Assembly: GCA_002783405.1 (NCBI GenBank)
Contig: PFGG01000074.1
Location: forward strand, 20,542-84,541
Length of the DNA stretch: 64,000 bases
Origin: a bacterium (Candidatus Blackallbacteria) CG13_big_fil_rev_8_21_14_2_50_49_14
Lineage (GTDB): Bacteria; Cyanobacteriota; Sericytochromatia; UBA7694
Reading direction: 5' to 3'
The notes below the pieces were generated by a model, which was not told where the DNA came from, did not search any database, and saw only the letters and a program-made list of their open reading frames with translations. Position numbers and translations under genes: made by a program. Positions 13,776 to 26,186 of the stretch are shown one piece after another (the stretch's first letter is position 1; the number at the start of each line of letters is the position of its first letter).

Positions 13776-13791
13776 TATCAGCTAGCTGACA
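13776..13791. promoter_or_regulatory. CRP-type palindrome, one mismatch (TATCA-GCTAGC-TGACA)
   Basis: Contains the perfect 12-bp palindrome TCAGCTAGCTGA. Lies between the regulator gene (start 13669) and the thioredoxin-like gene (start 13852). Confidence 0.45.
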
Positions 13792-13851
13792 TTATTTTTT
13801 GATGACGGCCTTTAAAATAGTATTTATTTCGTACTAAAGGATGAATTTCTT

Positions 13852-14094
13852 ATGCTAGAGGCGGTTGCTATTTGTGATGCGCTCTGTTTGAGCAAGACAG
13901 CTTTGAATCGGCAGCTTGAATCGCTTCAGAGCACCTGCCCTGATTTTCGTTTTCGTTGGGCTTCAGGAGCTGAATCACGTCTTTTGATGAAAAAACGTCA
14001 TGTAAAAATCTTACCTTGCCTTGTGATTGGTGAAATTGTACTCTATGGGGTGCCCGCCCAAGAAGAAATTCTGCAGACCTGGCAATTACAATGA
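13852..14094 (+). CDS. Small thioredoxin-fold protein (redox-active-disulfide-protein-2-like)
   Basis: 80 aa. N-terminal 'CDALC' CxxC and C-terminal 'ILPCLVIGEIVLYGVPAQEEI' follow the pattern of small Trx-like proteins. ATGA overlap with the next gene. Confidence 0.4.
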   Translation: MLEAVAICDALCLSKTALNRQLESLQSTCPDFRFRWASGAESRLLMKKRHVKILPCLVIGEIVLYGVPAQEEILQTWQLQ

Positions 14095-15326
14095 TGAGAT
14101 CTCTGTGGCTTGTTGTTTTTCTGTTGTTGAGTGCTTGTCAGTATTCCACTGTTATTGAGCCTCAGCCTCACTTGCCTGCTGAGGCCACCAATAACGCTGC
14201 ACCTTCTCAAAAACTTGATTCATTTGCTTTGTTGGAGCGTCATCATCTGGTACAGGTTTTGCAAGATATTCCAGCACGGATACTCCACTTAAAACAAGCA
14301 GATGGGGGTATTCTTTTCTGGATTATTTCAGAACAAGGTCATTTAGAAGTTTTTCAGCTTAAAAATGGGAATATTGTTTTAGGTTCTGTTCCTGAAAATC
14401 TGCCAGTTTTGCCGCCTGAGAGCAGTGCCTGGCCCCTTTTGATGCGCTCTGTGGATTTTCAAGTTCAAAAAGGCTTTCTCTATTTACCTTGGGAATCAGG
14501 GGGGATCGCTCTGGAGCCCCATACCGGTTATTTACAGCGATTTCCTCAGCGCCAGAGCTATTTTTTGAGCAAGGAGAGTTTGCCGGATGCCGAGCTGACT
14601 CTTTTCGAAGAAAATCTATTGCTCTTAGAAGCTCCAACAGAACGCTATGGGCATGGTATTTTGGGGGATCGCCTGGAAGCCTCAGGATTGGGGATGTATT
14701 CTCTTGAAAATGGAAAGAAGCAGGCCGAGATTGTTTTGCCCGAAACAGAGGTTTTTGAAACGCTACGCCCCCTAAGAGCAGAGTTGGTTTCTGAATCTGA
14801 TAGGGCTGAAATAATAATGACAGTCAGCGATAAGAACAAGGGCTCCTTCCTGCGTATCTACAGTGCAAATGGAGCTGAATTGGCTGTCGGTGCAGAAATC
14901 GGAAGCGCTTTTCGTTGGCTTCATCTTTTGGGGGTCGCTCATTTTGCGCCTGATTTAGCTGCTGAAATAGCAGTGATCAAAACTCCGCATATTGGCGGTG
15001 TTTTAGAGCTGTATAAGTTAAGTCAGGGAAAGTTGGTAAAAACAGTTTCTTTAAAGGGCTATTCAACGCATCGTATTGGGTCGCGAAATCTCGATATGTT
15101 TGTAATGTTTGATCTCAATGGAGATCACTTCCCTGAGCTGATTCTGCCGCACCAGGAGATGCGCAGTTTGGGTGTTCTCCAGCGCAATTCTCAAGGTTTT
15201 AAAGAGCAACTTCAACTTAACTTGGGCAGTCCTTTAAGTACCAATCTGGCAGGATTTTCTGAGTCAGATCAATGGCTTTTGGCAGCCGGAACGCAAAAAA
15301 AAGAACTTCATCTTTGGTTCAGATAA
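14091..15326 (+). CDS. Lipoprotein with an FG-GAP/VCBS-like repeat
   Basis: Signal/lipobox 'LWLVVFLLLSACQ'. 'FDLNGDHFPELIL' resembles an FG-GAP Ca-binding loop. Confidence 0.4.
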   Translation: MMRSLWLVVFLLLSACQYSTVIEPQPHLPAEATNNAAPSQKLDSFALLERHHLVQVLQDIPARILHLKQADGGILFWIISEQGHLEVFQLKNGNIVLGSVPENLPVLPPESSAWPLLMRSVDFQVQKGFLYLPWESGGIALEPHTGYLQRFPQRQSYFLSKESLPDAELTLFEENLLLLEAPTERYGHGILGDRLEASGLGMYSLENGKKQAEIVLPETEVFETLRPLRAELVSESDRAEIIMTVSDKNKGSFLRIYSANGAELAVGAEIGSAFRWLHLLGVAHFAPDLAAEIAVIKTPHIGGVLELYKLSQGKLVKTVSLKGYSTHRIGSRNLDMFVMFDLNGDHFPELILPHQEMRSLGVLQRNSQGFKEQLQLNLGSPLSTNLAGFSESDQWLLAAGTQKKELHLWFR

Positions 15327-15328
15327 TT

Positions 15329-15344
15329 TGTCAACCAGCTGACA
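15329..15344. promoter_or_regulatory. CRP-type palindrome TGTCA-ACCAGC-TGACA
   Basis: Perfect 5+5 match, 22 bp upstream of the YceI-like ORF start. Confidence 0.55.
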
Positions 15345-15366
15345 GAATTTTGCGAAAAAGTCTTTT

Positions 15367-16029
15367 ATGCTCAAACGAAGATTTACCATCAAACGAAGGA
15401 CTTATTTTGTGTTGAAAACCAGTGTGATTGCTCCATTTTTATTCTTTTCCCTTGTTTCGGCGGTCTTTGCAACCAGTTTGCCCAGTCGTCAAGTTTTACA
15501 GCAGGGGTCTCATTGTGTTGCTTGGCGAACCACGAAAACTTTGGCTTTGGTTTCTCAGCATGAGGTGGTCGGCGTCTCATGTCAGGTCTCTGTAACCGCC
15601 AAATCCGCAGCAGGAGAGAAATACTCGGCCACGGTCTCAATTCCCATCAACTCATTTAACAGTCAGGAGGCCGATCGTGACAAAGAAGTCCTGAAAATTT
15701 TAAAGGCCTCCGTCCAGCCCAATCTGCTCTTTACGACCCAAGCTTTTTCCAAAGCTCAGTGGGAAGCTCTCTTGGCAAAGGGTCAAGGCACTGTAAAAGG
15801 CCGACTGGCTGTGGGAGGACGCTCGTTTCCTCTCGCTGCGATTGTAAAAATCCGTAAAAATGGCGGTTCCATTGAGGTCTACGGCACGATTCGTACTCGT
15901 TTTACCGCGTTTGGAATTCAGCCGCCCGAAGTGGGCCCCGGCGGGGCAATTGCCAAGGTTCCAGATTATTTGGAGTTACATTTTAATTTAACTTCAGACA
16001 AAGTTCAGAATTATGGCATTGTCAAATAA
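15367..16029 (+). CDS. YceI-like secreted protein
   Basis: Signal peptide 'VIAPFLFFSLVSAVFA'. 'VSIPINSFNSQEADRDKEVLKILK' resembles the YceI 'S.dtg...RD.hl' segment. Confidence 0.45.
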   Translation: MLKRRFTIKRRTYFVLKTSVIAPFLFFSLVSAVFATSLPSRQVLQQGSHCVAWRTTKTLALVSQHEVVGVSCQVSVTAKSAAGEKYSATVSIPINSFNSQEADRDKEVLKILKASVQPNLLFTTQAFSKAQWEALLAKGQGTVKGRLAVGGRSFPLAAIVKIRKNGGSIEVYGTIRTRFTAFGIQPPEVGPGGAIAKVPDYLELHFNLTSDKVQNYGIVK

Positions 16030-16061
16030 ACTTATTCCATTTAAATCACAAGGAGAATTTC

Positions 16062-16577
16062 ATGAAACTATTTTCGACCCTGTTGGCAGCCAGTGTTTTG
16101 CTCTATACTGTTGTGGCCTGTACAGCCCCCAGCACACCTTCAGTGCCCAACACTCCCAGCAAGAATGCCCCAGCAACACAACCTGTGGAGCCAAGTGATG
16201 CCGACCTCAAGGCTCTGGCCAAGAGTTATGCCTCTTTTGCCGCGCTCAATACAGATTTGAAAGTGAGTCCAACGCACCAGGGGATGCTGGTCAGAACTCA
16301 TCTGGATGCGGCAGCAACCCAGGCTTATAACAGCAAATCGTACCCTTTTCCCGATGGGGCAACGGCTGTGAAAGAGGCCCATAAGTCAGCAGAATCACCG
16401 ACAGAAGCGCTTTTCGTCATGAAAAAAATCAAAGGCTATGATACGGCCAACGGGGATTGGTATTACGCGATGACAGCCCCTGATGGAACTGCCATGCAAA
16501 AGGGCAAGGTTCAGATGTGTATTTCATGCCATTCTCAAGCCAAAGCCAAGGATTATATCTACGGATTTAATCAATAA
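16062..16577 (+). CDS. Cytochrome P460-family haem lipoprotein
   Basis: Lipobox 'VVACT'. C-terminal 'GDWYYAMTAPDG...GKVQMCISCHSQAKAKDYIYGF' has CxxCH near the C-terminus in a 170-aa protein, as in the P460 family. Confidence 0.6.
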   Translation: MKLFSTLLAASVLLYTVVACTAPSTPSVPNTPSKNAPATQPVEPSDADLKALAKSYASFAALNTDLKVSPTHQGMLVRTHLDAAATQAYNSKSYPFPDGATAVKEAHKSAESPTEALFVMKKIKGYDTANGDWYYAMTAPDGTAMQKGKVQMCISCHSQAKAKDYIYGFNQ

Positions 16578-16599
16578 ACAGACCCTGAAACATAGCTGG

Positions 16600-16626
16600 G
16601 GAGGTCGTTGAGGGCCTCCTTTTTTT
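16600..16626 (+). terminator. Rho-independent terminator after the P460-like gene
   Basis: GGAGG...CCTCC stem (16600-16604 / 16615-16619) followed by T7. Confidence 0.5.
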
Positions 16627-16693
16627 AGAGTTTTAAGAGGATAAACGTCGAGCAACTCTTTCAAATCTGGTGAAAGTGGCAAAGGGGAGGATC

Positions 16694-17755
16694 GTGACCG
16701 TATTTTCTCAGACAAAGCCCTTGCTTGCTTCGGAGCTAGAGGCACATTTAAGGCGTCTTCGGCCTGGATTTGAGCCTGTATCTGCGCCTGTGGCCTTAAA
16801 GGGCGGGTACCTGAACTATGTCTGGCGATTGCAAGGGGAATCGGAAAGCTGGATAGCCAAACAGGCGCTGCCTTTTTTTGCAGCATTTCCTGAACAGGCT
16901 TTGTCTCCTACCCGTTTGTGGTTTGAAGTTCGGGCCCTTGAGGTCTTGGGGCCCATGGGGGCATTGGTTGAATTGCGCACAGAAACTGTTCGGGCTCCAC
17001 AATTATTGGCTTTTGAACCTGAATATTCTCTGCTTTGGATGGAAGATATTGGCTCTGGCCCGGATTTATATCATTGGTTGATGCAGATTCCCTGTCTGGA
17101 AAGGATTGCACATCGGGCACAAGAATTGGCTCTATTTTTGGCGGATCTTCATGCTTACAGTTCTTCCCATAGACGCTTGGCCGAGGATTTTTACAATTTT
17201 GAGGTTCAAGCAACCCGTCTGAGAGTTCAGTATGATTTGGCCGCCTGGCTGCCACAAAACCTGTATGAAGATCGCGTTTATACAGAATTGCGGCAAGCTG
17301 TTTATGCTTTGGGAGAGCAGTTATTAAAACCTGGAAAATGCCTGATCATGGGTGATCTCTGGCCCGCTTCAATCTGTATGACTGAACAGGGGATTCGTCT
17401 GCTTGATTGGGAATTTGTGCATTGGGGCCAACCGGCTCAAGATCTGGGGCATTTTATGGCCCATTGCTGGCTGATTTCTGAGGCGCATGCGGGTACGGCG
17501 ATTCAGGTTTGTATCGATCATTTCTGGCAGGTATTTTCTATGCATTACTGGAAGCGCATTGAAACAACCTGTCCTCAGCTTTGGCAGGAAAATGACTATG
17601 AAGCCAAGCGTATTCATGCCGGGGCTGAAATTTTAATTCGTACTGTGGGCATCTTTCAAAAATGCGGCTATTTTGCAGGCATTCCAGCACAGGATCCTCA
17701 GGTTTTGAAGGCTTTGGCTTTGGCTCAAACGCTGATTCTGGACTTTCAATCATGA
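16694..17755 (+). CDS. Phosphotransferase (APH / methylthioribose-kinase-like) family protein
   Basis: GTG at 16694 after GGGGAGG. 'GGYLNYVWRL', 'IMGDLWPASI' and 'LLDWEFVHWGQPAQDLGHF' match the APH/MtnK-like kinase core. Confidence 0.6.
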   Translation: MTVFSQTKPLLASELEAHLRRLRPGFEPVSAPVALKGGYLNYVWRLQGESESWIAKQALPFFAAFPEQALSPTRLWFEVRALEVLGPMGALVELRTETVRAPQLLAFEPEYSLLWMEDIGSGPDLYHWLMQIPCLERIAHRAQELALFLADLHAYSSSHRRLAEDFYNFEVQATRLRVQYDLAAWLPQNLYEDRVYTELRQAVYALGEQLLKPGKCLIMGDLWPASICMTEQGIRLLDWEFVHWGQPAQDLGHFMAHCWLISEAHAGTAIQVCIDHFWQVFSMHYWKRIETTCPQLWQENDYEAKRIHAGAEILIRTVGIFQKCGYFAGIPAQDPQVLKALALAQTLILDFQS

Positions 17756-17861
17756 GATTTTTTCTCTTTGTTATTTTGAAGGCAGTCTGATTGAATTCGT
17801 AGGAGTTGGTTTTATTCTGGACAGGTTTTTAGGTTCTAATTTTTTGTACTGAGGTTGAAAA

Positions 17862-18302
17862 ATGAAAAAAATATTATTGGCCCGCCCTCACCCCTTTCTT
17901 GTTCAAGAAATGAGTCAATTTCTTTTAGAAGAAGGATACTTTATTGAGCCCTTGAGGTCTTTTAGCGAATTATCTATTCAGGTCGAGAATAGTTCTGCAG
18001 TGATTATCTCTACTGCAGTCTCTGCGACTATTCAAGAAAGTGCCAGGGAGGTTTTTGCGGGCTTATATAAATACGCAATTCCTACAATCTTCGCTGGTTT
18101 ATTGGGTGTGGCTCAAGCTCGTTCATTGATTCAAGAAGCTGTCCAGGATTTTTATTCAGAACCCCTGATTGTGAGTGCAGAGAGTCAAGAGCGGGAACTC
18201 ATTGATGCTCGTCGGCCTTTTTTATTTATCTGTCGGGATGATTTAAAACATCTGGATTCACGGGCAAAAATAGCAAGATTATTATTGCGATTTATGGGGT
18301 AA
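17862..18302 (+). CDS. Hypothetical protein
   Basis: 146-aa ORF. No family recognised. Confidence 0.45.
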   Translation: MKKILLARPHPFLVQEMSQFLLEEGYFIEPLRSFSELSIQVENSSAVIISTAVSATIQESAREVFAGLYKYAIPTIFAGLLGVAQARSLIQEAVQDFYSEPLIVSAESQERELIDARRPFLFICRDDLKHLDSRAKIARLLLRFMG

Positions 18303-18304
18303 TT

Positions 18305-18547
18305 GTGAGCTTCAGATGGTTGATGGTGACTATTCATACCAAAATTCTTATCAATTCTCTTAAAATTGCCTTGGTGGTGGGTTTTGTCTTGAATCTGATC
18401 AATCAAGGGCCAGCCATATTTGCCGGTCAGACCGTTTCTTGGTGGCATATTTTATTGAATTTTTGTGTGCCTTTTTGTGTGGCAACTTACAGTGCAGCTA
18501 AAAATCAAATGGATTCGGAACAATCTTCACTCAAGTCACGTGATTGA
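18305..18547 (+). CDS. NrtS-like small membrane protein (putative nitrate/nitrite transporter family)
   Basis: 'LKIALVVGFVLNLINQGPAIFAG...LLNFCVPFCVATYSA' matches my recollection of the NrtS family. The start could be GTG 18305 or ATG 18323. Confidence 0.55.
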   Translation: MSFRWLMVTIHTKILINSLKIALVVGFVLNLINQGPAIFAGQTVSWWHILLNFCVPFCVATYSAAKNQMDSEQSSLKSRD

Positions 18548-18593
18548 ACGACAGGAGCTTAAATCTGAGCCGATTGCGCTTGGCTTTGCTGCC

Positions 18594-18926
18594 TTACGCT
18601 TTTTTTTCATGATAGGAGTTAAAAACAGTCTGCAGATACTGAATAATCTCTTTGGATTCTAGCATCGGCTGGCCATCAACCAGCAGGCAGGGGACTTGGG
18701 TTTTTCCGGTGAGTTCAATCAGTTTTTGTCGATACTGGGGATTCTCACGGGTATCTCGGTAGACCACGGGCCATTGATGTTCTTCAATCACGGCCATGAC
18801 ACGGCGGCAAAAAGGGCAGGCATCAAACTTGTACAAAACCAGTTCATCAGGTTTGAGATTCAGTACTTGCTCGGTTTTGGCGGGCTGTTTAAAAAAGGCC
18901 TGAGAGAAAAATTTTTTGGCAAACAT
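18594..18926 (-). CDS. Glutaredoxin-family protein
   Basis: 'YKFDACPFCRRV' CPFC active site and 'TQVPCLLVDGQPMLESKEIIQYL'. Confidence 0.8.
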   Translation of the reverse strand: MFAKKFFSQAFFKQPAKTEQVLNLKPDELVLYKFDACPFCRRVMAVIEEHQWPVVYRDTRENPQYRQKLIELTGKTQVPCLLVDGQPMLESKEIIQYLQTVFNSYHEKKA

Positions 18927-18983
18927 GTTATTACTCCAAGAGAAGTGTTAATTTGAGTATAGGTGTAGCCCTGATTGCTATTC

Positions 18984-18999
18984 TGTCATTCAGTTGACA
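18984..18999. promoter_or_regulatory. CRP-type palindrome TGTCA-TTCAGT-TGACA
   Basis: Perfect 5+5 match in the divergent region between the glutaredoxin gene (start 18926) and the cyclase gene (start 19058). Confidence 0.55.
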
Positions 19000-19057: not shown

Positions 19058-20545
19058 ATGCTTGATCCTATTGCCCTCAAACAAAAATTTCAGACACTCA
19101 AACAATTTGAAGGTCTCAATCATGCGTTGATTGAGCGTCTTGAGGCTCTTTTGCCTCAGTTGGATGCTTGGGATTTGCACCGTTTAAATCCTCTGGAGCT
19201 GGCAAAAAATCACGATTTTGAATTATTGGCACTGCTGGATATTCTGATTTACGCCGTAAAAATTGGGATCTTTGATTTTTTCTGGACTCCGATTTGCCCT
19301 GGTTGTGGCGGTATTGAATATACCTCAGACAGCCTCAATGCCTTAAAAAAAGGCAGTATCCAATGCACAACCTGTGTCATGGAAATTGAATTGGATCTGG
19401 CCCAGCATATCGAAGTGGCTTTTCACTTGAATTCGGCCATGGGGGATTTCAGCCAAGAGACTTCACCTTTTTCAAGTTTTGAAAATTACCTGCGCTATTA
19501 TTTTTCGGCCTATTTGCAGCGCTCTGAAGTTCTCCAAGATTATATTCAAAGGCATTTTAAGGGCTTCCGCGTTTTAGAGCCTGATCAGCAATTGGAATTA
19601 CAATTGGAAACCCAGCCACAAACCCAGTGGCGTTTGATCAATTTGCAGTCACACTCACAGCTTGTCTTGCGAGTAGCTGATGCAGATAGCCCGACCCCTT
19701 CTCTCTCAGCGCTTCAGAGTGATTTGGTTGCCAGCGGTTTCTCTCCTTCAGAACAAATTCTTTCTGCCGGGCATACTCATTTTTGGATTAAGAACCATGA
19801 ATCCGTGGCGCGGGTGCTCACGCTTTGGACTGCAGATTTTGAGAAATTTCATCAGATTTTGAGTGAACATCCCAATGCTTATCGGCCTTTTTTGACCGCG
19901 CAAATGCTGCTCAATACCCAGTCATTTCGTGATTTGTTTAAAATTCAGGCTTTGGATCCTGATTTGCATTTGAAAATTGGCAGTCAAACCGTTCTTTTTA
20001 GCGACCTCAAAGGCTCTACTGCGATGTACGAACAAAAAGGCGACTATCAGGCTTATCAGTGGGTGCAGCGACATTTTCATGCTCTGACGGAGAGCACGCG
20101 TCAGCATGCGGGTTCAGTGGTCAAAACCATGGGAGATGCGATCATGGCCACGTTTTCGCGGCCTCAGGACGGTATTTTAGCTGCCCTTGAGATGTTGGCT
20201 CGGATTCAGTCCTTGCAGCACGAAAATTCGCCAGAGGGCATGACCTTGGGTTTAAAACTGGGCTTGCATCAAGGGCCTGTACTGGCTGTCAATGCCAATG
20301 ACCGTCTGGATTATTTTGGCCAAACGGTCAATCTCGCGGCACGGGTTCAGGGCTTGGCAGAAGCCGGGGAGCTGTGGCTCAGTGAGAGCATGATAGACCT
20401 TGCAAAACCTTTGCTGCAACAGGCTCATTTTCAATGGGAACGGCGTGAGGCCAATCTCAAAGGCATTACCGAGAAAACGGTGGTGTATCGCTGCTGGCCG
20501 GTCGAACCTTTAACGATTTCCAGACAGGCCAGCGTTCGATTTTGA
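19058..20545 (+). CDS. Class III adenylate/guanylate cyclase with an N-terminal Cys-rich sensor-like domain
   Basis: 'VLFSDLKGSTAMYE', 'KTMGDAIMATF' and 'GQTVNLAARVQ'. N-terminal 'CPGCGG...CTTC' zinc-ribbon-like pairs. ATG at 19058. Confidence 0.85.
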   Translation: MLDPIALKQKFQTLKQFEGLNHALIERLEALLPQLDAWDLHRLNPLELAKNHDFELLALLDILIYAVKIGIFDFFWTPICPGCGGIEYTSDSLNALKKGSIQCTTCVMEIELDLAQHIEVAFHLNSAMGDFSQETSPFSSFENYLRYYFSAYLQRSEVLQDYIQRHFKGFRVLEPDQQLELQLETQPQTQWRLINLQSHSQLVLRVADADSPTPSLSALQSDLVASGFSPSEQILSAGHTHFWIKNHESVARVLTLWTADFEKFHQILSEHPNAYRPFLTAQMLLNTQSFRDLFKIQALDPDLHLKIGSQTVLFSDLKGSTAMYEQKGDYQAYQWVQRHFHALTESTRQHAGSVVKTMGDAIMATFSRPQDGILAALEMLARIQSLQHENSPEGMTLGLKLGLHQGPVLAVNANDRLDYFGQTVNLAARVQGLAEAGELWLSESMIDLAKPLLQQAHFQWERREANLKGITEKTVVYRCWPVEPLTISRQASVRF

Positions 20546-20733: not shown

Positions 20734-21066
20734 CTAATACAAGCAGGCATCCAACAGGGCTAAGACTTCGTTTAAAACCGCAAGCGGGGCACGTTTAATT
20801 CGTTTCGCCTCACGTATTTTGTAATCAACAGATTTGACTTGTTCGACCATAATATATCCTGTCAGCCCTGTATCGGCAGGAATAGCCACATGAAAGGGAA
20901 AATTCCGAAAAGTGTTGGTAATGGGGCAAACCAAGGCCAGGCCTGTGTGCTTGTTAAACAAGGTATTGCTGACGACCAGAGCCGGACGTCGTCCCCTTTG
21001 CTCATGGCCCGCTTGAGGATCAAAGGTCAGATAAATAAAATCGCCTTTTTGCGGGATATCAGCCAT
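20734..21066 (-). CDS. mazF: MazF/PemK-family toxin endoribonuclease
   Basis: 'GDFIYLTFDPQAGHEQRGRRPALVVS' and 'LVCPITN'. The start 'MADIPQ' overlaps the mazE stop (TAATG). Confidence 0.8.
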   Translation of the reverse strand: MADIPQKGDFIYLTFDPQAGHEQRGRRPALVVSNTLFNKHTGLALVCPITNTFRNFPFHVAIPADTGLTGYIMVEQVKSVDYKIREAKRIKRAPLAVLNEVLALLDACLY

Positions 21067-21314
21067 TACCAGACCTCTTTCCCTGCTGCTTGCCCCCAAT
21101 TTTCTTCCTGAACCTGGTAATTGGCGGGAATTTCCCGCACCAGTGCCTTTAAACTGTATTTGCCCCGAATCTGCGTTACAGGTTCAATCACAATCCGTCC
21201 TTGTTCAACTGAAACTTCGACTTCATCTCCCACATCCAAGTGCAGGCTGGATAAGATTTCTTTGGAAAGACGCAGCCCTTGACTGTTTCCCCATTTCTGC
21301 AATTTGGTCAGCAT
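21066..21314 (-). CDS. mazE: MazE/AbrB-fold antitoxin
   Basis: 'KLQKWGNSQGLRLSKEIL...VGDEVEVSVEQGRIVIEP' is a SpoVT/AbrB swapped-hairpin motif. Confidence 0.8.
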   Translation of the reverse strand: MLTKLQKWGNSQGLRLSKEILSSLHLDVGDEVEVSVEQGRIVIEPVTQIRGKYSLKALVREIPANYQVQEENWGQAAGKEVW

Positions 21315-21353: not shown

Positions 21354-21408
21354 ACTTGGGATTGGATCAAGCCTTAAATCGGATAGAGCCTTGTAGACCT
21401 ATTGAGGC

Positions 21409-21441
21409 AAAAAAAAGCGCTGCCGAAGGGAGAGGCAGCGC
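21409..21441 (-). terminator. Rho-independent terminator of the cytochrome c operon
   Basis: GCGCTGCC/GGCAGCGC 8-bp stem with an A8 run on the plus strand, i.e. a U8 tail on the minus strand. Confidence 0.6.
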
Positions 21442-21466
21442 CGATCAAGTGAATACAGAGCGAGAA

Positions 21467-21841
21467 CTATTTTTTTAAGGTGTGAATATACGCCACCACA
21501 TCCTGAAGCTGGGTTGGGTTTAGGGTTCCTTCCCAGGCTGGCATTGGAGATTTTCCTTTTTTAATAAAAGCAATCAACTCAGCGTCATTTTTGGCATATA
21601 AAAATTTGCCGATACTGAAATCACGGGGTTTGGGAGTGAGTGCTTTGCCCACGGGCCCATCGGCTTTACCGGTATTGCCATGACAGGTGGCGCAGCGTTG
21701 CATGTAGACCTTTTTTCCGGCTTTGGCATTGCCTGCTGCGGCTTCAGCCTGTGGTGCTGAGCCATTGAACAACATCAGGCCTCCCGTCAAAACTGCCATT
21801 CCCAAACTGACCTGTAAAGTTTTTTTCCAAAACATTTTCAT
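21467..21841 (-). CDS. Secreted class I c-type cytochrome
   Basis: Signal peptide, 'CATCHG' haem site and distal 'SPMPAW'. Confidence 0.8.
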   Translation of the reverse strand: MKMFWKKTLQVSLGMAVLTGGLMLFNGSAPQAEAAAGNAKAGKKVYMQRCATCHGNTGKADGPVGKALTPKPRDFSIGKFLYAKNDAELIAFIKKGKSPMPAWEGTLNPTQLQDVVAYIHTLKK

Positions 21842-21858
21842 AGGTTTACTTCCTTTCC

Positions 21859-23706
21859 TTAATTAAGAGCGACTGTAATACTTTGGGCGGTAACGGGAGC
21901 CGTGCCAAACATACCCCCAGCAAACATGGGGTTGGGGGTTCCGTCTTCATCGCTGTCCCGCATCCCGATTATCATTTCCATGCGTTTCTCTTCGGGCATG
22001 CGCATCAACTGACTCATTTGAACAGTCATTTTGACCATTTCAAATTCATCTTCAGGCATCATCTCACCGGTTTCGCCCATCTCAGCCAATTGCAGACCTT
22101 GACCATCTTCGCGTTTGACACTGTGTTCAAAGAACTTACTCATATATGCCACAAGTTCTTTGCGGGTTGTGCCGTCACTTTGTAAGGCCAGTTCACGCAG
22201 CGCACCCAAGGTTGCGGCGATGCTTTGAGCGTTGAGCGTGGTTTCGTCCTTGTCGGAATCCAGAGCTTTAAAGATCTGAGCATCTTCGGCCCAGAAATAT
22301 TTTTTGAGGGCCTCGTAACCTCTTTGGGCTGCCAATTGGTATACCTTTTTGCCTGTTGCTTGGTGAGCCAAAGTTAGGGCTTTGATGGCAAAGCCTTGGG
22401 CCTCCAGCGTAAATGCACCACTTTCAGGTCTTTGTTGTCCCAAATGAAAAGCTGTATAAAAGCGCCCATCGGGGGTTTGCAGTTTGTTTATGAGAAAATC
22501 TGCCTGGGCAGTTAAAAACTGGGTGCCCATTTGCTTGAGCATGGGATCGTCATGAAAGGCTTTGATACTGTTTTCCAAGGCTGAAATCAACATGCCAGAA
22601 CTGGCGGTTGAAACCCGGCTGTCTTGGTGACCGGGGCTGGCCTGATCTACAAAAACCATGTTTTTGCTGTCTTGGTGCATGGCCATCAGATTTTTTAAGA
22701 GTACTGCAGAAACCCCTTTTGCAAGCATATGGGGCATGGTCGGGAAGAGGGCTCCCTGAGCTTCTTCGCCAAAGACCGAATCAAAACTGTCTTTGACGAG
22801 CGGATCTGAGTAAAAATAAAATTCACTGGCAGCCCAGAGCAATGAGGCCTGATCAAAGAGCCGAGAATGGGCATCTCTGACTTTAAATCCCGTCAACATC
22901 GCGGGCATGCCCGGCATACTGCTCTGCAGCTGGGGCTCTACGGCGTGAGGGAAGTAGCGCAGGCCTTTCATGGGATCATAGTTCATTGGGTCAACAGGGG
23001 TAAATTTGCGGCCATCAAAGGCCAATTGATCTTTTAAAGACATCAGGGCGTTTAAACTGGCAGCAGTCAAAACCCCCCCCCGAAAACCATCCATTTCTGT
23101 TCGTCCGAGTTGATTGCCCCGGTGGGCACTGAAAAAATCTTCCGACCACAGAATCTGTTTCATGACCGTCTGTCCCAGGGCATCCATTTTGATCTGGGTA
23201 TCAAAACTCTGAGGGTTCCAACGCAGGGTTTCGGCATCAAAGGGGTTGATACTGTGGGTGAACTGAGGTGTGCCGCCTGCAAAAGGTAAATAGGTGGGAT
23301 ACATATTCTTGGGCATGTCTTTGAGACCTGAACGCATCATGAACTGTTTGACCTTCGATACCATAAAGTCTTTGGGGGTGGGAAACAGGGCTTTGTTTTG
23401 ATTCGATATCATCACACCCACGGGCCCATTGACCAGATGCACCCCCATGCCCGACATCATTGACAGATTGCCCAGATTGTAAAGTGAATACCAGTAGGAA
23501 TCGGTATCAATTGCTGAACCCAGTGATTTATACGGCAGGCCACAGGAAAAAACTTTGATCTCTTCATTGGCCAGATACATGGCTTGGGCTGTGTCAAAAT
23601 GTTCGTTTCTTTCGGCATGGGCCGCCTGTGTCAAAACCGGGGTCTGAAGCAGAACAGAAGCTGCCATGATCGAAAATAAACTTTGTTTAATTCCTTTAAA
23701 TTTCAT
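21859..23706 (-). CDS. Secreted Met-rich protein of unknown family (possible alpha/alpha-toroid core)
   Basis: Signal peptide 'SIMAASVLLQTPVLTQAAHA'. 13 Met in about 60 residues near the C-terminus. Lies 17 nt upstream of the cytochrome c gene. Confidence 0.6.
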   Translation of the reverse strand: MKFKGIKQSLFSIMAASVLLQTPVLTQAAHAERNEHFDTAQAMYLANEEIKVFSCGLPYKSLGSAIDTDSYWYSLYNLGNLSMMSGMGVHLVNGPVGVMISNQNKALFPTPKDFMVSKVKQFMMRSGLKDMPKNMYPTYLPFAGGTPQFTHSINPFDAETLRWNPQSFDTQIKMDALGQTVMKQILWSEDFFSAHRGNQLGRTEMDGFRGGVLTAASLNALMSLKDQLAFDGRKFTPVDPMNYDPMKGLRYFPHAVEPQLQSSMPGMPAMLTGFKVRDAHSRLFDQASLLWAASEFYFYSDPLVKDSFDSVFGEEAQGALFPTMPHMLAKGVSAVLLKNLMAMHQDSKNMVFVDQASPGHQDSRVSTASSGMLISALENSIKAFHDDPMLKQMGTQFLTAQADFLINKLQTPDGRFYTAFHLGQQRPESGAFTLEAQGFAIKALTLAHQATGKKVYQLAAQRGYEALKKYFWAEDAQIFKALDSDKDETTLNAQSIAATLGALRELALQSDGTTRKELVAYMSKFFEHSVKREDGQGLQLAEMGETGEMMPEDEFEMVKMTVQMSQLMRMPEEKRMEMIIGMRDSDEDGTPNPMFAGGMFGTAPVTAQSITVALN

Positions 23707-23776
23707 CTTTATTTCTTCCTTTTTAGCAAAATAATTGATTTATACTGCTATTATCACCTTGCTTAAATTAAAAATC

Positions 23777-23792
23777 TGTCAAGTAAGTGACA
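23777..23792. promoter_or_regulatory. CRP-type palindrome TGTCA-AGTAAG-TGACA
   Basis: Perfect 5+5 match, 71 bp upstream of the Met-rich protein ATG. Confidence 0.55.
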
Positions 23793-23811
23793 ATGGTAAG
23801 AAATTGAAGAA

Positions 23812-24221
23812 TTATTTTGTGTAAAAACGAATTTCCCGCGCCCCGGTATTTCCGCCACTGCTGCTCACTGTCTCAATTTTGATACTTGTGATATTGAGAC
23901 TGGAATTTAAAGCAAACAGATAAGTTTGGCTGGGGTCTGGGCTTAAAAAAGGCCCCAAAACCTGTTCTCCCTCATTTAAAATCAACCGAGTGGCTCAGCC
24001 TTTGGGGCTGTTTAAAACGCAGGCTGACAAAGGCTTTGTTACCGTCTCCCTGACTTGACCATTCCGTGGCCATGCTGTCATCAAAGGCCTTGTGGATACC
24101 GAAAGTTCCATTAAAATCATCCCCACCAAAAATTGGCTGATGGCTGAGAAACAGGCAATTGGCAGGCCGAGAGCGTCAGGACTCCTGATAAAAGGCCACC
24201 CATCAGTAGCGGTTTATACAT
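23812..24221 (-). pseudogene. Lipoprotein with a discoidin/galactose-binding-like domain, split by two +1 frame changes
   Basis: Frame a reads 'MYKPLLMGGLLSGVLTLSACQ...'. Frame b reads 'DDFNGTFGIHKAFDDSMATEWSSQGDGNKAFVSLRFKQPQRLSHSVDF'. Frame c reads 'LNEGEQVLGPF...SIKIETVSSSGGNTGAREIRFYTK'. Both junctions lie at T/A homopolymer runs. Confidence 0.5.
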
Positions 24222-24222
24222 G

Positions 24223-25098
24223 TCATGAATCCTTTGGGTTTAAAATACGATGCTGTTTTAGAATGTTGAGAAAAACCTGAGGTTCGGGCCGAACCCGGTA
24301 ATTATCAGCAATTTCCACAAATTGTACAATTCCAGCGGCATCAAGAATGATCAGGGTTGGCAAGACAGTGTCTTTATCATAACCCAGGGTTTGCATGCCT
24401 GTGGGAAGGCCCCAGGCATGAAAAATATCCAGTTTTTGGGCCATCGCCCCCTGGGGGTCTGACAAAAACTGCATGGGCACTGAAAATTTCTCTGCCAAAG
24501 CTTGGCTGTGGGCCTGATCTTGCGGGCTGATCAGCACGATTTGAACACCCCATTCGCTCAATTCCCGATATTGTTTAGCTACCTCCCGAATTTGGGCCAT
24601 ACACAGCGGGCACCAATTGCCCCGGTAAAACAAAATCAAAGTGGGTTTTCCCAACCAGTCTGAAGATTTTACAGGCTGTGCCTGCAAATCTGTAAAAACC
24701 ATCTCAGGCAGGGGTTGACCGATCTTTAAGGGGGTATTTTCAGGCTTTTGCAGCCGAGAATACCAATAGACATACAAAAACCAGCTTCCCCCTACCAGTC
24801 CTAATCCGAGCAAAGGTCCGAGCAATTGAATCTCTTCGAACCCCCAAGCCCACGTACCCAAGCCAAGAGCAAGCAGCTCGAAAAGGCTCCAACTGCTTAA
24901 ATTGGGTTGGGTGCGGGCGCGCTTGAAGACAAACAGTGAGCCAATAAAGAGGAACCCCAGCGTTGTCGCACTGAACAAACTCCACCAGAATACAGAGCGA
25001 AACCCTGACTGAAAAAGCTCAGCCGTGCTGTCATACAGAAAAAAAGCCAGTGCCGTCATCCAGACAGGAATAAACAAAGATTTGAGCATATTCATCAC
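24223..25098 (-). CDS. Membrane-anchored peroxiredoxin-like (AhpC/TSA, redoxin) protein
   Basis: About 4 N-terminal TM helices, then 'GKPTLILFYRGNWCPLCMAQIREV'. Confidence 0.75.
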   Translation of the reverse strand: MMNMLKSLFIPVWMTALAFFLYDSTAELFQSGFRSVFWWSLFSATTLGFLFIGSLFVFKRARTQPNLSSWSLFELLALGLGTWAWGFEEIQLLGPLLGLGLVGGSWFLYVYWYSRLQKPENTPLKIGQPLPEMVFTDLQAQPVKSSDWLGKPTLILFYRGNWCPLCMAQIREVAKQYRELSEWGVQIVLISPQDQAHSQALAEKFSVPMQFLSDPQGAMAQKLDIFHAWGLPTGMQTLGYDKDTVLPTLIILDAAGIVQFVEIADNYRVRPEPQVFLNILKQHRILNPKDS

Positions 25099-25106
25099 TC
25101 CAGGGG

Positions 25107-25757
25107 TTATTTTTCGAATTTCAGGACTTGTAAAATACTGTCTGGTTCCATGCGCTGGGTATAATCCGCTTGAATATGAGCCAGAATGACTTTGCCTGAA
25201 CGATTCACCACATAAGTGGCGGGAATTGGCAATTCGGCTTGTGTGCTGCCATTGTGTTGGTTTAAATTAAGCTTTAAAAGCCCTCTGTAGACAGCCTGTA
25301 AATCTGGATTGACTGCAAAAACAAGCCCCAGAGAACGGGCATAGGCATTTTCTCTGTCGGTGAGCACTTCAAATTCCAAGGCCAGTTTTTCTTTTAAGTC
25401 GAGGCTGTGATCGGGTAATTCAGGTGAAATGGCGACCAATTGTGCCCCCAGCGCTTGAAGTTCTGGCAAGATGGCCTGTTGGGCTCGCAATTCCAAATTA
25501 CAATAGGGGCACCAACTGCCCCTGTAAAAACTGATCACCAGAGGTCCCTGGGCATAGAGATCCTGGATTGACAAGCTTTGCCCAAAGGCATTGGGCAGCA
25601 CTGCCTCGGGAATTTTCTGTCCCACCTGGAGTGCTTTTTCGGCCAGCCCACTGGCCCATAATTCTCTTAAACCTTTTTGTAAAATTGCTTTGGCTGTGGG
25701 GGGCATTTTTGCCAGTCCCTGGGTGTTTAAAGCTTGCAAAGCCTGATTTAATGACAT
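25107..25757 (-). CDS. Peroxiredoxin-like family protein (AhpC/TSA)
   Basis: 'GPLVISFYRGSWCPYCNLELRA'. The start is uncertain: 25757, 25793 and 25811 are all in frame. Confidence 0.75.
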   Translation of the reverse strand: MSLNQALQALNTQGLAKMPPTAKAILQKGLRELWASGLAEKALQVGQKIPEAVLPNAFGQSLSIQDLYAQGPLVISFYRGSWCPYCNLELRAQQAILPELQALGAQLVAISPELPDHSLDLKEKLALEFEVLTDRENAYARSLGLVFAVNPDLQAVYRGLLKLNLNQHNGSTQAELPIPATYVVNRSGKVILAHIQADYTQRMEPDSILQVLKFEK

Positions 25758-25843
25758 CGTTATTCGCCTTATCTTTTTTAGTGTGGGGTTCATGTGATTG
25801 ACCCCCCACACAAGAAAAATAAACTATAGGGGGTGAGGTATTC

Positions 25844-25859
25844 TGTCAGGAGCCTGACA
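25844..25859. promoter_or_regulatory. CRP-type palindrome TGTCA-GGAGCC-TGACA
   Basis: Perfect 5+5 match (7+7 if extended: TGTCAGG/CCTGACA), just upstream of the peroxiredoxin operon. Confidence 0.55.
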
Positions 25860-26137
25860 ATTGATAAATTAAACTATTAGGTTTGAATGGGCCTGCTCAG
25901 TGCTCTCAAATTGTGGGTTTAAGATAGCAGGGAGCCCGTCTTTTTCGGGCACCCCTGCTTCCAATTCATTTAATCTTTGTTTTTTGCGTGTCTGTCATTG
26001 AGTGATTGAGGGGCTCCTGATTGAGTGGATAAACCGATGAAAATGGCCAGGGTAGTTGTTTGGCTTCATTTTCATCGGGGGTCTCAATTCGAAAATTGAA
26101 GACTTGCTTATATTAGATTTTGTTGATGCAAACAGGC

Positions 26138-26153
26138 TGTCAGGTAGCTGACA
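26138..26153. promoter_or_regulatory. CRP-type palindrome TGTCA-GGTAGC-TGACA
   Basis: Perfect 5+5 match upstream of the thioredoxin/ccdA operon. Its centre is 33 bp from the next copy. Confidence 0.55.
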
Positions 26154-26170
26154 AATATTTTCCAGATCTT

Positions 26171-26186
26171 TGTCAACCATCTGACA
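26171..26186. promoter_or_regulatory. CRP-type palindrome TGTCA-ACCATC-TGACA
   Basis: Perfect 5+5 match, about 100 bp upstream of the thioredoxin ATG. Confidence 0.55.

What the first reader, a model, noticed from the sequence alone, without database searches (positions are those of the whole stretch)
13776..26186. TGTCA-N6-TGACA palindrome, six perfect copies plus one near-copy, all intergenic, upstream of redox/haem genes next to a Crp/Fnr-family regulator
I scanned every TGACA in the window by eye. Perfect TGTCA-N6-TGACA occurs exactly six times (15329, 18984, 23777, 25844, 26138, 26171), and there is one one-mismatch copy at 13776 (TATCA...TGACA). With equal base frequencies about 0.06 perfect copies are expected in 64 kb (64000/4^10). 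All seven copies lie in intergenic DNA, which is only about a tenth of the window. Each is 20-140 bp upstream of a gene start: the small Trx-like gene and the divergent regulator; yceI-like/P460; glutaredoxin and the divergent cyclase; the Met-rich protein/cytochrome c operon; the peroxiredoxin operon; and thioredoxin/ccdA. The geometry is that of CRP-family sites (TGTGA-N6-TCACA). The only Crp/Fnr-family gene in the window (12977-13669) sits beside the first copy. Together this looks like a compact, self-contained regulon for extracytoplasmic thiol/oxidant defence whose operator differs from the classical CRP, FNR and NtcA boxes.
Basis: partly seen in the sequence, partly recalled or inferred. 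Interest (0 to 1): 0.78.

Follow-up and report, generated by a model that had tools for sequence, protein, structure and literature searches.

The report
Crp-family activator boxes, redox regulon
Seven copies of a 16-bp palindrome mark the promoters that the neighbouring Crp/Fnr-family regulator most likely switches on; together they define a small conserved regulon of thiol-redox, haem and envelope proteins in uncultured non-photosynthetic relatives of cyanobacteria, which is a well-supported finding of a familiar kind.

Summary
TGTCA-N6-TGACA occurs exactly six times (0.07 expected), and there is one TATCA variant. All seven copies are intergenic and lie within 12.4 kb next to the only Crp/Fnr gene in the window. 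It is the most frequent of all 5-mer inverted repeats with spacers of 4-8 nt.

Comparative data support the regulon reading. Orthologous regulators (83-45% identity; Sericytochromatia, Blackallbacteria, Vampirovibrionales) and 38%-identical homologues in Marinimicrobia/Fidelibacterota carry TGTC(A/G)-N6-(C/T)GACA boxes beside them. The same target genes carry boxes even when they lie 35 kb away or on another contig.

A TAnnnT -10 hexamer starts 20-22 nt after the box. That puts the box centre near -41.5, with no -35 element, which is the classic class II activator layout.

The box is not new: it belongs to the CooA operator class. This fits the recognition helix, R-P/Q-T-V here and R-Q-T in CooA, against R-E-T-V in CRP.

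The regulator lacks the cNMP-phosphate Arg. It has a Cys that is invariant in 120/120 homologues and aligns with FNR Cys122, and it is almost always adjacent to a mini-thioredoxin gene. The signal it senses is unknown; a thiol-based switch responding to oxidant or nitrosative stress is my inference.

Verdict: a new member of a known kind, of moderate interest.

The parts
12977..13669 (-). Crp/Fnr-family regulator, 230 aa. Recognition helix A-R197-P198-T-V-T-E; invariant Cys111; N-terminal K9-L-W11-Y-L motif.
   Evidence: Pfam cNMP_binding 73 bits and HTH_Crp_2 53 bits. Scores are far below every NCBIfam equivalog cut-off. Best PDB hit is NtcA, E=5e-25. Invariant residues.
13776..13791 (.). Box 1, TATCAGCTAGCTGACA (one mismatch), in the divergent region between the regulator gene and the mini-thioredoxin gene.
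   Evidence: The same TATCA distal half-site is conserved in the 83%-identity orthologous loci L018, L021 and L024.
13813..13818 (+). Predicted -10 hexamer TAAAAT, 21 nt after box 1.
13852..14094 (+). Mini-thioredoxin-fold protein, 80 aa, with C-D-A-L-C in place of CxxC.
   Evidence: A family HMM finds it adjacent to the regulator in at least 15 loci. Relatives pass the Pfam Thioredoxin_3 cut-off; the window copy scores only E=0.038.
14091..15326 (+). 411-aa lipoprotein of unknown function, co-transcribed with the mini-thioredoxin.
   Evidence: No Pfam or NCBIfam hit. Orthologues of 369-375 aa sit in the same position in L018 and L021.
15329..15344 (.). Box 2, TGTCAACCAGCTGACA.
   Evidence: An orthologous box lies before YceI-P460 in L018, L021 and L077.
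15366..15371 (+). Predicted -10 hexamer TATGCT, 21 nt after box 2. It overlaps the nominal ATG at 15367.
15409..16029 (+). YceI-like exported protein. The probable true start is GTG 15409; the ORF as listed starts at 15367.
   Evidence: Pfam YceI. The orthologue is 206 aa. An AAGGA Shine-Dalgarno motif lies 8 nt before 15409 (sequence).
16062..16577 (+). Cytochrome P460 with a CISCH haem motif. A terminator-like hairpin follows at 16598-16621.
   Evidence: Pfam 50 bits. Terminator scan.
18594..18926 (-). Glutaredoxin, 110 aa.
   Evidence: Pfam Glutaredoxin and GST_N_3.
18956..18961 (-). Predicted -10 hexamer TATACT, 22 nt from box 3, pointing towards the glutaredoxin gene.
18984..18999 (.). 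Box 3, TGTCATTCAGTTGACA, between the glutaredoxin gene and the divergent DUF5939-cyclase gene. No -10 lies at the right distance on the cyclase side.
21467..21841 (-). Exported c-type cytochrome, 124 aa, downstream of the Met-rich gene.
   Evidence: Pfam Cytochrome_CBB3 and Cytochrom_C.
21859..23706 (-). Exported 615-aa protein: an (alpha/alpha)6 barrel with a Met-rich C-terminal tail.
   Evidence: AlphaFold2 model with mean pLDDT (confidence) 87.7. Foldseek matches the AGE / cellobiose-2-epimerase / YihS fold at E~1e-6. Some homologues are fused to cytochrome c.
23750..23755 (-). Predicted -10 hexamer GATAAT, 21 nt from box 4.
   Evidence: Conserved in L071, L072 and L074.
23777..23792 (.). 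Box 4, TGTCAAGTAAGTGACA.
   Evidence: Identical box at -85/-86 in three orthologous loci (the fourth locus starts too close to the gene); phylogenetic footprint in more distant loci.
24223..25098 (-). Membrane-anchored AhpC/TSA-fold redoxin with a WCPLC motif.
   Evidence: NCBIfam.
25107..25811 (-). AhpC/TSA-fold redoxin with a WCPYC motif. The probable start is ATG 25793.
   Evidence: sequence.
25816..25828 (-). Two candidate -10 hexamers for the redoxin operon: TATTTT at offset 22 and TATAGT at offset 15.
   Evidence: Both are conserved in L071 and L072.
25844..25859 (.). Box 5, TGTCAGGAGCCTGACA.
   Evidence: Orthologous box in L071, L072 and L077.
26138..26153 (.). Box 6, TGTCAGGTAGCTGACA. 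Its centre is 33 bp upstream of box 7, about -74.5 for the Trx promoter. It also faces a relic promoter on the minus strand.
   Evidence: The relic is described.
26171..26186 (.). Box 7, TGTCAACCATCTGACA.
26208..26213 (+). Predicted -10 hexamer TAGATT, 21 nt after box 7.
26284..27569 (+). Exported thioredoxin (WCPAC, 150 aa) and a CcdA/DsbD-type membrane electron transporter (275 aa).
   Evidence: Pfam Thioredoxin and DsbD_TM. The same pair follows a box in L022, L027, L029, L031 and L035.

Best explanation
The seven palindromes are the DNA operators of the adjacent Crp/Fnr-family regulator (12977-13669). A dimer binds each 16-bp box, consensus t-TGTCA-G-n-n-A-n-C-TGACA-r. Each target promoter has a -10 element but no -35 element, and the box is centred near -41.5. 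The regulator therefore most likely acts as a class II activator that recruits RNA polymerase, as CRP, FNR, NtcA and CooA do.

In this window it would switch on six transcription units: mini-thioredoxin plus lipoprotein; YceI plus cytochrome P460; glutaredoxin; (alpha/alpha)6 Met-rich protein plus cytochrome c; two CxxC redoxins; and exported thioredoxin plus CcdA. The last promoter has a second, tandem box at about -74.5.

Shown: the sites, their enrichment, their conservation, and their fixed spacing to a -10-like hexamer. Inferred: binding by this protein, and activation.

The signal is not known. The protein lacks the cyclic-nucleotide phosphate-binding Arg, so it is probably not a cAMP/cGMP receptor. 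My best guess, at about one chance in three, is a thiol-based switch on the invariant Cys111. It would be oxidised, S-thiolated or S-nitrosated under oxidant, nitrosative or copper stress, and reset by the co-conserved mini-thioredoxin.
For: Enrichment and location.

The regulator and the box travel together:
- 83%-identity orthologues (L018, L021, L024) have the same TATCA-type box in the divergent region, plus perfect boxes before YceI-P460 and other genes.
- The 70%-identity locus L022 has a box between Trx-CcdA and P460.
- The 62%-identity locus L029 has four perfect boxes.
- Vampirovibrionales L035 has TGTCGGCAAGACGACA followed by TAAACT at offset 21, before a Trx-CcdA-miniTrx-regulator operon.
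- Five Marinimicrobia/Fidelibacterota loci (38% identity) have a perfect box 6 bp after the regulator's stop codon, then a TATAAT-like hexamer, then the mini-thioredoxin gene.

Targets keep the box away from the regulator. Of the four Met-rich gene orthologue loci, the three whose upstream DNA is held have the identical box at -85/-86; the fourth (L073) starts 37 bp before the gene. One of the three is about 35 kb from the regulator and one is on another contig. L077 and L075 show the same. The footprint alignment conserves only the box. A 42%-identity homologue in another lineage (L076), with no regulator gene in the ~12 kb fetched, has no box.

Geometry: TAnnnT starts 20-22 nt after the box in 35 of 62 flanks of 31 non-identical perfect boxes, against a background of 0-7 (mostly 0-3) at each other offset. 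No -35/-10 promoters are found at these starts.

Specificity logic:
- The residue at the position of CRP Glu181 contacts base pair 7, the G of TGTGA (established knowledge from CRP-DNA structures and Ebright's mutants; the residue-180/181-versus-base correlation is documented in PMC1274295). Here that residue is P or Q.
- CooA has R177-Q178 (PDB 1ft9) and a TGTC-type box (PMC545781).
- Homologues with R-E-[TS]-V never have TGTCA boxes nearby, and some have TGTGA-N6-TCACA.

Sensor domain: Q98/D99 occupy the positions of CRP R82/S83, and Cys111 aligns with FNR Cys122. The Cys is invariant in 120/120 homologues. The mini-thioredoxin gene is adjacent in at least 15 loci.
Against: - No experiment exists, and the organisms are uncultured MAGs.
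- Only 64 kb of this genome could be scanned, so genome-wide specificity is untested.
- One related MAG carries two paralogues with the same helix (L026, L029). A paralogue elsewhere in this genome could share or own some of the boxes.
- The -10 statistic contains orthologous promoters that are not independent.
- Box 5 also has a better -10 (TATAGT) at offset 15. That would put the box at about -35.5, a position compatible with repression.
- The proximal half-site nTGACA resembles a -35 hexamer, although a 20-22 nt spacer is too long for sigma-70.
- Nothing directly ties Cys111 or the mini-thioredoxin to signalling. The Cys could be structural.
Confidence: 0.8

Rival explanations
1. The boxes are bound by this regulator, but it acts as a repressor. 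It would occlude RNA polymerase at the -35 region and release the genes under stress.
For: A box spanning about -49 to -34 overlaps the place where sigma region 4 sits. Box 5 has a strong alternative -10 at offset 15, which centres the box near -35.5. Crp/Fnr proteins can repress (PMC545781).
Against: No -35-like hexamer lies at a 16-18 nt spacing from the predicted -10 elements (sequence). Without an activator these promoters look non-functional. The narrow 20-22 nt spacing peak is what face-of-the-helix contact with RNA polymerase requires; simple occlusion would not impose it. The tandem -41.5/-74.5 pair (33 bp centre to centre) is a typical activator arrangement.
Confidence: 0.08
2. The boxes belong to another transcription factor. 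This could be a Crp/Fnr paralogue encoded elsewhere in the genome or an unrelated dimeric regulator, and the adjacency to this gene would be coincidental or only partial.
For: One related MAG has two paralogues (70% and 62% identical to the window protein) with the same R-P-T-V-T helix, each with boxes nearby (L026, L029). The rest of this genome could not be searched.
Against: The box is found next to members of this subfamily in four or more lineages, whatever the neighbouring genes. It changes to TGTGA-type, or disappears, when the helix changes. No other regulator is conserved beside the boxes.
Confidence: 0.08
3. The palindromes act at the RNA level or are structural DNA: small hairpin terminators or attenuators, or a dispersed repeat element, rather than protein-binding sites.
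For: Several boxes are followed by T-rich tracts. Box 6 was picked up by the terminator scan. Box 2 begins 2 bp after a stop codon.
Against: The stem would be only 5 bp. The arms are conserved in sequence with no compensatory changes, while the 6-nt centre varies. The boxes lie upstream of genes and of -10 elements, not at operon ends. The flanks are unrelated, so this is not a mobile repeat. Rfam finds nothing.
Confidence: 0.02

Closest known systems
CooA, the CO-sensing Crp/Fnr-family activator of Rhodospirillum rubrum and Desulfovibrio
   Same: Same operator class. The CooA consensus is TGTCGGCNNGCCGACA, and the D. desulfuricans cooSC site TGTCaGCcAGCCGACA (PMC545781) is identical to the box at L030:9920. 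The boxes in L035 and L033 are TGTCG...CGACA. The recognition residues are the same, R-Q-T (PDB 1ft9; orthologues here have R-Q-T-V, the window protein R-P-T-V). Both are activators with the site overlapping the -35 region (the CooA position is from my own knowledge).
   Different: CooA senses CO through a haem held by His77 and the N-terminal Pro2. This family has no invariant His in the sensor domain. No coo genes are nearby. Sequence similarity to CooA (E=5e-17) is weaker than to NtcA or CRP.
E. coli CRP (CAP)
   Same: Same two-domain fold. Both use a 16-bp palindrome with a 5-6-5 layout and the TGT...ACA frame. Both show the class II -41.5 promoter geometry and tandem-site promoters.
   Different: The half-site is TGTCA rather than TGTGA. 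The residue at position 181 is Pro/Gln rather than Glu, and at 185 it is Glu rather than Arg. The cAMP-phosphate ligands R82/S83 are replaced by Q98/D99. The NCBIfam CRP model scores 94 bits against a cut-off of 266.
NtcA, the cyanobacterial 2-oxoglutarate-responsive nitrogen regulator
   Same: The closest relative with a solved structure (E=5e-25; the DNA-binding domain is most similar too). It is also a class II activator at -41.5 with a TGT-N10-ACA frame (own knowledge). The lineage is a sister to cyanobacteria.
   Different: The NtcA box is GTA-N8-TAC and its helix is R-V-T-V-T-R. The TIGR03697 model scores 90 bits against a cut-off of 245. The target genes are different, and nothing in this regulon points to nitrogen assimilation.
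FNR, and the FNR-like proteins (FLP) of lactic acid bacteria
   Same: The invariant Cys111 aligns with FNR Cys122, one of the Fe-S ligands. FLP proteins keep few Cys and can work without an Fe-S cluster (PMC5039431). From my own knowledge, L. casei FLP is switched by a thiol-disulfide change (Gostick et al. 1998). CprK is another family member controlled by disulfide formation (PMC2610375 abstract).
   Different: There is no N-terminal Cys cluster, so a four-Cys Fe-S centre is impossible. The box is not TTGAT-N4-ATCAA. Only one Cys is conserved, whereas the FLP switch needs two.
HcpR, NssR, DNR and NnrR, the Crp/Fnr-family sensors of nitrosative stress
   Same: All are family members that activate small detoxification regulons from class II-type sites, often beside their targets (PMC1274295). 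The regulon here includes cytochrome P460, and an NrtS-family protein is a conserved neighbour.
   Different: Their boxes differ (TTGAC-N4-GTCAA, GTAAC-N4-GTTAC, TTGAT-N4-ATCAA, TTGCG-N4-CGCAA). No hcp, nor or nir genes are present. No orthology was detected.

Membership tests
[quoted passage not shown] | N-terminal cNMP-binding-type beta-roll domain | tested here: met
   Pfam PF00027, 73.3 bits against a cut-off of 27.5.
[quoted passage not shown] | C-terminal Crp-type helix-turn-helix domain | tested here: met
   Pfam PF13545, 52.8 bits, and PF00325, 24.8 bits. The domain aligns with the NtcA and CRP HTH.
[quoted passage not shown] | Palindromic operator of about 16 bp, centred near -41.5 at activated promoters | tested here: met
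   The box layout is 5-6-5, and the -10 hexamer starts 20-22 nt after the box. Transcription starts are predicted, not mapped.
[quoted passage not shown] | The protein actually binds the operator as a dimer | not testable with these tools
   Needs EMSA, DAP-seq or footprinting.
CRP sensu stricto (cAMP receptor protein) | Phosphate-binding cassette Arg82/Ser83 | tested here: not met
   Q98/D99 occupy these positions (profile alignment). Across 120 homologues the second position is Glu/Asp in 97.
CRP sensu stricto (cAMP receptor protein) | TGTGA-N6-TCACA box with Glu181 in the recognition helix | tested here: not met
   The box is TGTCA and the residue is Pro198. NCBIfam PRK11753 scores 94 bits against a cut-off of 266.
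NtcA | Equivalog-level sequence similarity and a GTA-N8-TAC box | tested here: not met
   TIGR03697 scores 90 bits against a cut-off of 245. The box differs.
FNR | Four Cys ligands for a [4Fe-4S] cluster (three N-terminal plus Cys122) | tested here: not met
   Only the Cys122 equivalent is present. There is no N-terminal Cys cluster. PRK11161 scores 61 bits against a cut-off of 228.
CooA | TGTC(G/A)-N6-(C/T)GACA operator and an R-Q recognition pair | tested here: met
   In the window protein Pro replaces Gln, while 83%-identity orthologues with Gln have the same box.
CooA | Haem ligands (His77/Cys75 and N-terminal Pro2) and control of coo (CO dehydrogenase/hydrogenase) genes | tested here: not met
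   No invariant His in the sensor domain. No coo genes in the window or in related loci.

The most novel reading that the evidence does not exclude
The regulator represents a widespread, undescribed Crp/Fnr subfamily (Sericytochromatia, Melainabacteria, Marinimicrobia, Nitrospirota, Acidobacteriota and others). It would sense thiol-reactive stress through a single invariant cysteine at the position of FNR Cys122. Candidate stresses are oxidants, S-nitrosating species or copper. The regulator would work as a two-component redox relay with a dedicated mini-thioredoxin encoded next to it. That would be a one-Cys switch on a CRP scaffold, or even a cofactor bridged between the two proteins.
Probability: 0.25. 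Interest if true: 0.65.

Novelty: new member of a known kind. Interest (0 to 1): 0.42.

Why it matters
It gives the first concrete, testable regulator-operator-regulon assignment I could find for the non-photosynthetic sister lineages of cyanobacteria. Full-text searches returned nothing on this box or regulon.

It links a set of poorly understood exported proteins to one control circuit, which is a handle on their function. These are cytochrome P460 in a non-nitrifier, YceI, an (alpha/alpha)6 Met-rich protein that partners a cytochrome c, and CxxC redoxins.

It adds a clean natural example of the rule that position 181 of the recognition helix sets base 7 of the half-site.

It also points to an invariant Cys and a partner mini-thioredoxin as a possible new sensing mode in a very well-studied protein family.

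The box plus the fixed -10 spacing is specific enough to annotate regulon members in related metagenome-assembled genomes.

Tried and rejected
- **Single-protein scan of genome contigs with the regulator.** It found only relatives of about 25% identity. An alignment-based scan was needed.
- **Word-indexed homologue search with the 80-aa mini-thioredoxin.** It returned only the query itself. The family was recovered with an HMM I built on ORFs of the fetched loci.
- **Literature string searches for the box.** Nothing found.
- **Rfam on the whole window.** Nothing found, so the long 'intergenic' gaps are not known RNAs. The 25860-26137 gap turned out to be a deletion remnant.
- **cAMP/cGMP receptor fed by the neighbouring DUF5939-cyclase.** I consider this unlikely. 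The phosphate-binding Arg is missing. The cyclase side of box 3 has no -10 at the right distance. No cyclase was seen among the genes beside the regulator in the other loci examined.
- **FNR-type Fe-S sensor.** Rejected: only one of the four Cys ligands is present.
- **CooA orthologue.** Rejected: no haem ligands and no coo genes.
- **Proximal half-site nTGACA serving as a -35 hexamer.** Rejected because the spacer to the -10 is 20-22 nt.
- **Other enriched inverted repeats (CAAAG-N6-CTTTG, TTCAG-N7-CTGAA).** All copies are in coding DNA, so I treat them as chance.
- **Names for cultured homologues.** Nothing beyond 'Crp/Fnr family transcriptional regulator'.

Full report
**1. The observation**

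Dinucleotide-preserving shuffles give 0.07 copies on average, and none of 100 reaches six. Allowing one mismatch adds the TATCA...TGACA copy at 13776.

On a rough gene map (85% coding) all seven listed copies are intergenic and fall between 13.7 and 26.2 kb. The remaining ~51 kb has none.

The motif was chosen after looking at the sequence, so I counted every 5-mer inverted repeat with spacers of 4-8 nt. TGTCA-N6 ranks first with six copies. The runners-up have four copies each, all in coding DNA. The window contains only one Crp/Fnr-family gene.

**2. The genes**

The regulator (12977-13669, minus strand) has a cNMP-binding-type domain and a Crp-type HTH. The boxes precede six transcription units:
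- an 80-aa mini-thioredoxin-fold protein and a 411-aa lipoprotein;
- YceI and cytochrome P460, followed by a terminator-like hairpin;
- a glutaredoxin;
- an exported 615-aa Met-rich protein and a c-type cytochrome;
- two AhpC/TSA-fold proteins with WCPxC motifs, which score as well on ResA/SelL-type redoxin models as on thiol-peroxidase models, so they may be redoxins rather than true peroxiredoxins;
- an exported thioredoxin and CcdA.

A model of the Met-rich protein (mean pLDDT 87.7) is an (alpha/alpha)6 barrel of the AGE / cellobiose-2-epimerase / YihS type. Some homologues are fused to a cytochrome c domain, which matches the adjacent cytochrome gene here.

**3. The organism**

The closest regulator homologues (83% identity) come from Candidatus Sericytochromatia / Blackallbacteria metagenome-assembled genomes (MAGs). 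These are non-photosynthetic sister lineages of cyanobacteria.

**4. Conservation with the regulator**

- In the 83%-identity loci the divergent region between the regulator and the mini-thioredoxin gene holds the same one-mismatch box with a TATCA half-site. Perfect boxes precede YceI-P460 and other genes.
- A 70%-identity locus has a perfect box between Trx-CcdA and P460.
- A 62%-identity locus has four perfect boxes.
- 45-52%-identity loci have TGTCA-N6-(A/C)GACA or TGTCG-N6-CGACA boxes before P460, Trx-CcdA or the mini-thioredoxin-regulator operon.
- Five Marinimicrobia/Fidelibacterota loci, with regulators only 38% identical, have a perfect TGTCAG-N4-(C/A)TGACA box 6 bp after the regulator's stop codon. 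A TATAAT-like hexamer follows, then a CxxC mini-thioredoxin gene and a DoxX-like gene.

**5. Conservation at targets away from the regulator**

Four orthologue loci of the Met-rich gene were fetched (88-92% identity). The three whose upstream DNA is held carry the identical box at -85/-86; the fourth (L073) starts 37 bp before the gene. One lies about 35 kb from the regulator on the same contig, and another is on a different contig of its MAG.

Two further relatives (72-73% identity) keep boxes before the redoxin, Met-rich and YceI-P460 units. Their distal half-sites are degenerate, but the proximal TGACA is intact.

An alignment of six Met-rich promoters conserves essentially only the box once the sequences diverge. 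A 42%-identity homologue in an unrelated lineage, with no regulator gene in the ~12 kb fetched around it, has no box at all.

The recurrent core of the regulon is the mini-thioredoxin, Trx-CcdA and cytochrome P460 (with or without YceI). Accessory members in relatives include DUF3179, a TPP enzyme, a DUF4344 metallopeptidase, an S8 peptidase and DJ-1/PfpI.

**6. Promoter geometry**

I examined both flanks of 31 non-identical perfect boxes. A TAnnnT hexamer starts 20, 21 or 22 nt after the box in 35 of the 62 flanks, against 0-7 (mostly 0-3) at each other offset. If the hexamer spans -12 to -7, the box centre lies at -40.5 to -42.5.

No -35-like hexamer lies at a 16-18 nt spacing, and the generic promoter scan finds nothing at these gene starts. 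This is the layout of class II CRP/FNR/NtcA-dependent promoters (established knowledge, Busby and Ebright).

Boxes 6 and 7 are 33 bp apart centre to centre, which gives a -74.5/-41.5 tandem. A composite model (distal half at least 3 of 5, TGACA, TAnnnT at 20-22) finds exactly the seven sites in 64 kb.

Caveats: orthologous promoters inflate the count, transcription starts are predicted rather than mapped, and box 5 has an alternative -10 at offset 15.

**7. Specificity logic**

In CRP, Glu181 reads base pair 7, the second G of TGTGA (established knowledge). Rodionov et al. documented the correlation between residues 180/181 and the bases across the family (PMC1274295).

Here the helix is R-P-T-V-T-E, and R-Q-T-V-T-E in the 83%-identity orthologues that share the box. 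CooA has R177-Q178-T (PDB 1ft9). Its operator consensus is TGTCGGCNNGCCGACA, and a Desulfovibrio site, TGTCaGCcAGCCGACA (PMC545781), is identical to one of the boxes found here (L030).

Among the fetched loci, all ten perfect TGTNN-N6-NNACA palindromes within 1.5 kb of the R-[PQ]-T-V regulators are TGTC-type. Homologues with R-E-[TS]-V have TGTGA or TGTTA palindromes or none, and never TGTCA.

**8. What the regulator is not, and what it may sense**

It scores far below every NCBIfam equivalog cut-off: CRP 94/266, NtcA 90/245, FNR 61/228. Its best solved relative is NtcA at about 30% identity.

The cyclic-phosphate ligands of CRP, R82/S83, are replaced by Q98/D99. Across 120 homologues the second position is acidic in 97. 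A canonical cAMP/cGMP receptor is therefore unlikely, despite the neighbouring cyclase gene.

It has no invariant His (so it is not CooA-like) and no N-terminal Cys cluster (so it is not FNR-like). It does have a Cys that is invariant in 120/120 homologues and aligns with FNR Cys122, and an invariant N-terminal K-x-W motif.

A mini-thioredoxin gene sits next to the regulator in at least 15 loci from several phyla. It can be divergent, upstream in the same operon, or downstream. Some members pass the Pfam Thioredoxin_3 cut-off.

From this I infer, without proof, a thiol-based switch reset by the mini-thioredoxin. FLP and CprK are precedents for thiol control in this family (and my own knowledge).

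The trigger could be oxidant or disulfide stress, supported by the many CxxC proteins and by Ohr/Prx/LysR neighbours in L033. It could be nitrosative stress, supported by cytochrome P460 in the core regulon. An NrtS-family protein and a 146-aa protein also follow the regulator directly in L031 and L034. It could be copper stress, supported by the Met-rich protein and by the copper ATPase, multicopper oxidase and Cus genes beside the regulator in L018 and L021. I cannot decide between these.

**9. Rival explanations**

- Repression rather than activation is possible, but it does not explain the missing -35 elements or the tight helical phasing.
- A paralogue could share the boxes; one related MAG has two paralogues with the same helix.
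- An RNA hairpin or a dispersed repeat element is excluded by the 5-bp arms that are conserved in sequence without compensatory changes, by the variable centre, and by the unrelated flanks.

**10. Novelty and verdict**

Full-text searches found no description of this box, regulator subfamily or regulon. The library is incomplete.

The mechanism class, a Crp/Fnr class II activator with a local regulon, is textbook, and the operator class is that of CooA. I therefore rate this a new member of a known kind, of moderate interest.

The most novel reading still open is a widespread one-Cys redox or NO switch on a CRP scaffold, working with a dedicated mini-thioredoxin.

Noticed in passing
window 25860-26137: The 278-bp 'empty' stretch between boxes 5 and 6 is a deletion remnant. 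In a related MAG (L074) a box, a TATACT -10, a leader hairpin (CCGATGAAAATG...CATTTTCATCGG) and a Shine-Dalgarno site precede a ~290-aa HELSH-motif (HExxH) protein. The window keeps box 6, a minus-strand -10 (TAATAT, 26110-26115), the hairpin and the gene's last ~70 bp, but the gene body is gone. In L071 a DUF3179-like ORF (not scanned against Pfam) sits at this spot instead.
   Followed up: partly
window 23972-24221 (minus strand): A small lipoprotein ORF downstream of the membrane redoxin is split between two frames (MYKPLLMGGLLSGVLTLSAC...FWWG* and ...DDFNGTFGIHKAFDDSMATEW...). This is either a frameshifted pseudogene or an assembly error.
   Followed up: no
window 13722-13764: A perfect 21-bp tandem duplication (TTTAACAGTAAAAGGTATTAT, two copies) lies between box 1 and the regulator's start codon. 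It may carry the regulator's own promoter: each copy holds TAAAAT- or TAAACT-like hexamers on the minus strand. Whether box 1 autoregulates from a class I position is unresolved.
   Followed up: partly
window 15367-15409: The annotated ATG of the YceI gene overlaps the predicted -10 hexamer. GTG 15409, preceded by AAGGA, gives a 206-aa protein with a clean signal peptide, the same length as the orthologue in L018.
   Followed up: partly
window 17862-18547; L031:7322-8018; L034:6547-7258: An 80-aa NrtS-family membrane protein (NF038050, 35 bits against a cut-off of 25) and a 146-aa protein with no family hit have no box in the window. In two 45%-identity loci, however, they lie immediately downstream of the regulator. 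They are conserved neighbours of unknown role.
   Followed up: partly
window 20734-21314 (minus strand): A MazF/PemK toxin gene (Pfam E=1.7e-26) with an overlapping upstream 82-aa ORF that looks like a MazE/AbrB-type antitoxin (KWGNSQGLRL motif; not scanned). The pair is inserted in the middle of the regulon cluster.
   Followed up: no
window 21859-23706 and homologues P0174, P0187, P0191: The Met-rich exported protein is an (alpha/alpha)6 barrel of the sugar-epimerase/isomerase fold. It has no Pfam family and is widespread as 'hypothetical'. In some proteobacteria it is fused to a c-type cytochrome domain, which suggests an uncharacterised redox enzyme that partners cytochrome c.
   Followed up: partly
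window 10474-12186 (minus strand): A 570-aa Gly/Ala-rich protein with at least three near-identical internal repeats containing ELVGR(Q/R)YNIPVMK(E/Q)AL. It has no significant family hit.
   Followed up: no
window 19058-20545: A DUF5939 domain fused to a class III nucleotidyl cyclase, divergent from the glutaredoxin gene. It shares the intergenic region with box 3 but has no -10 at the class II distance, so it is probably not part of the regulon.
   Followed up: partly
L018:12721-15628; L021:3465-13365: In two 83%-identity relatives the regulator is followed directly by a copper-resistance block: a P-type ATPase with an HMA domain, a response regulator, a multicopper oxidase and CusCBA-like genes. 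The window has no such block at that position.
   Followed up: no
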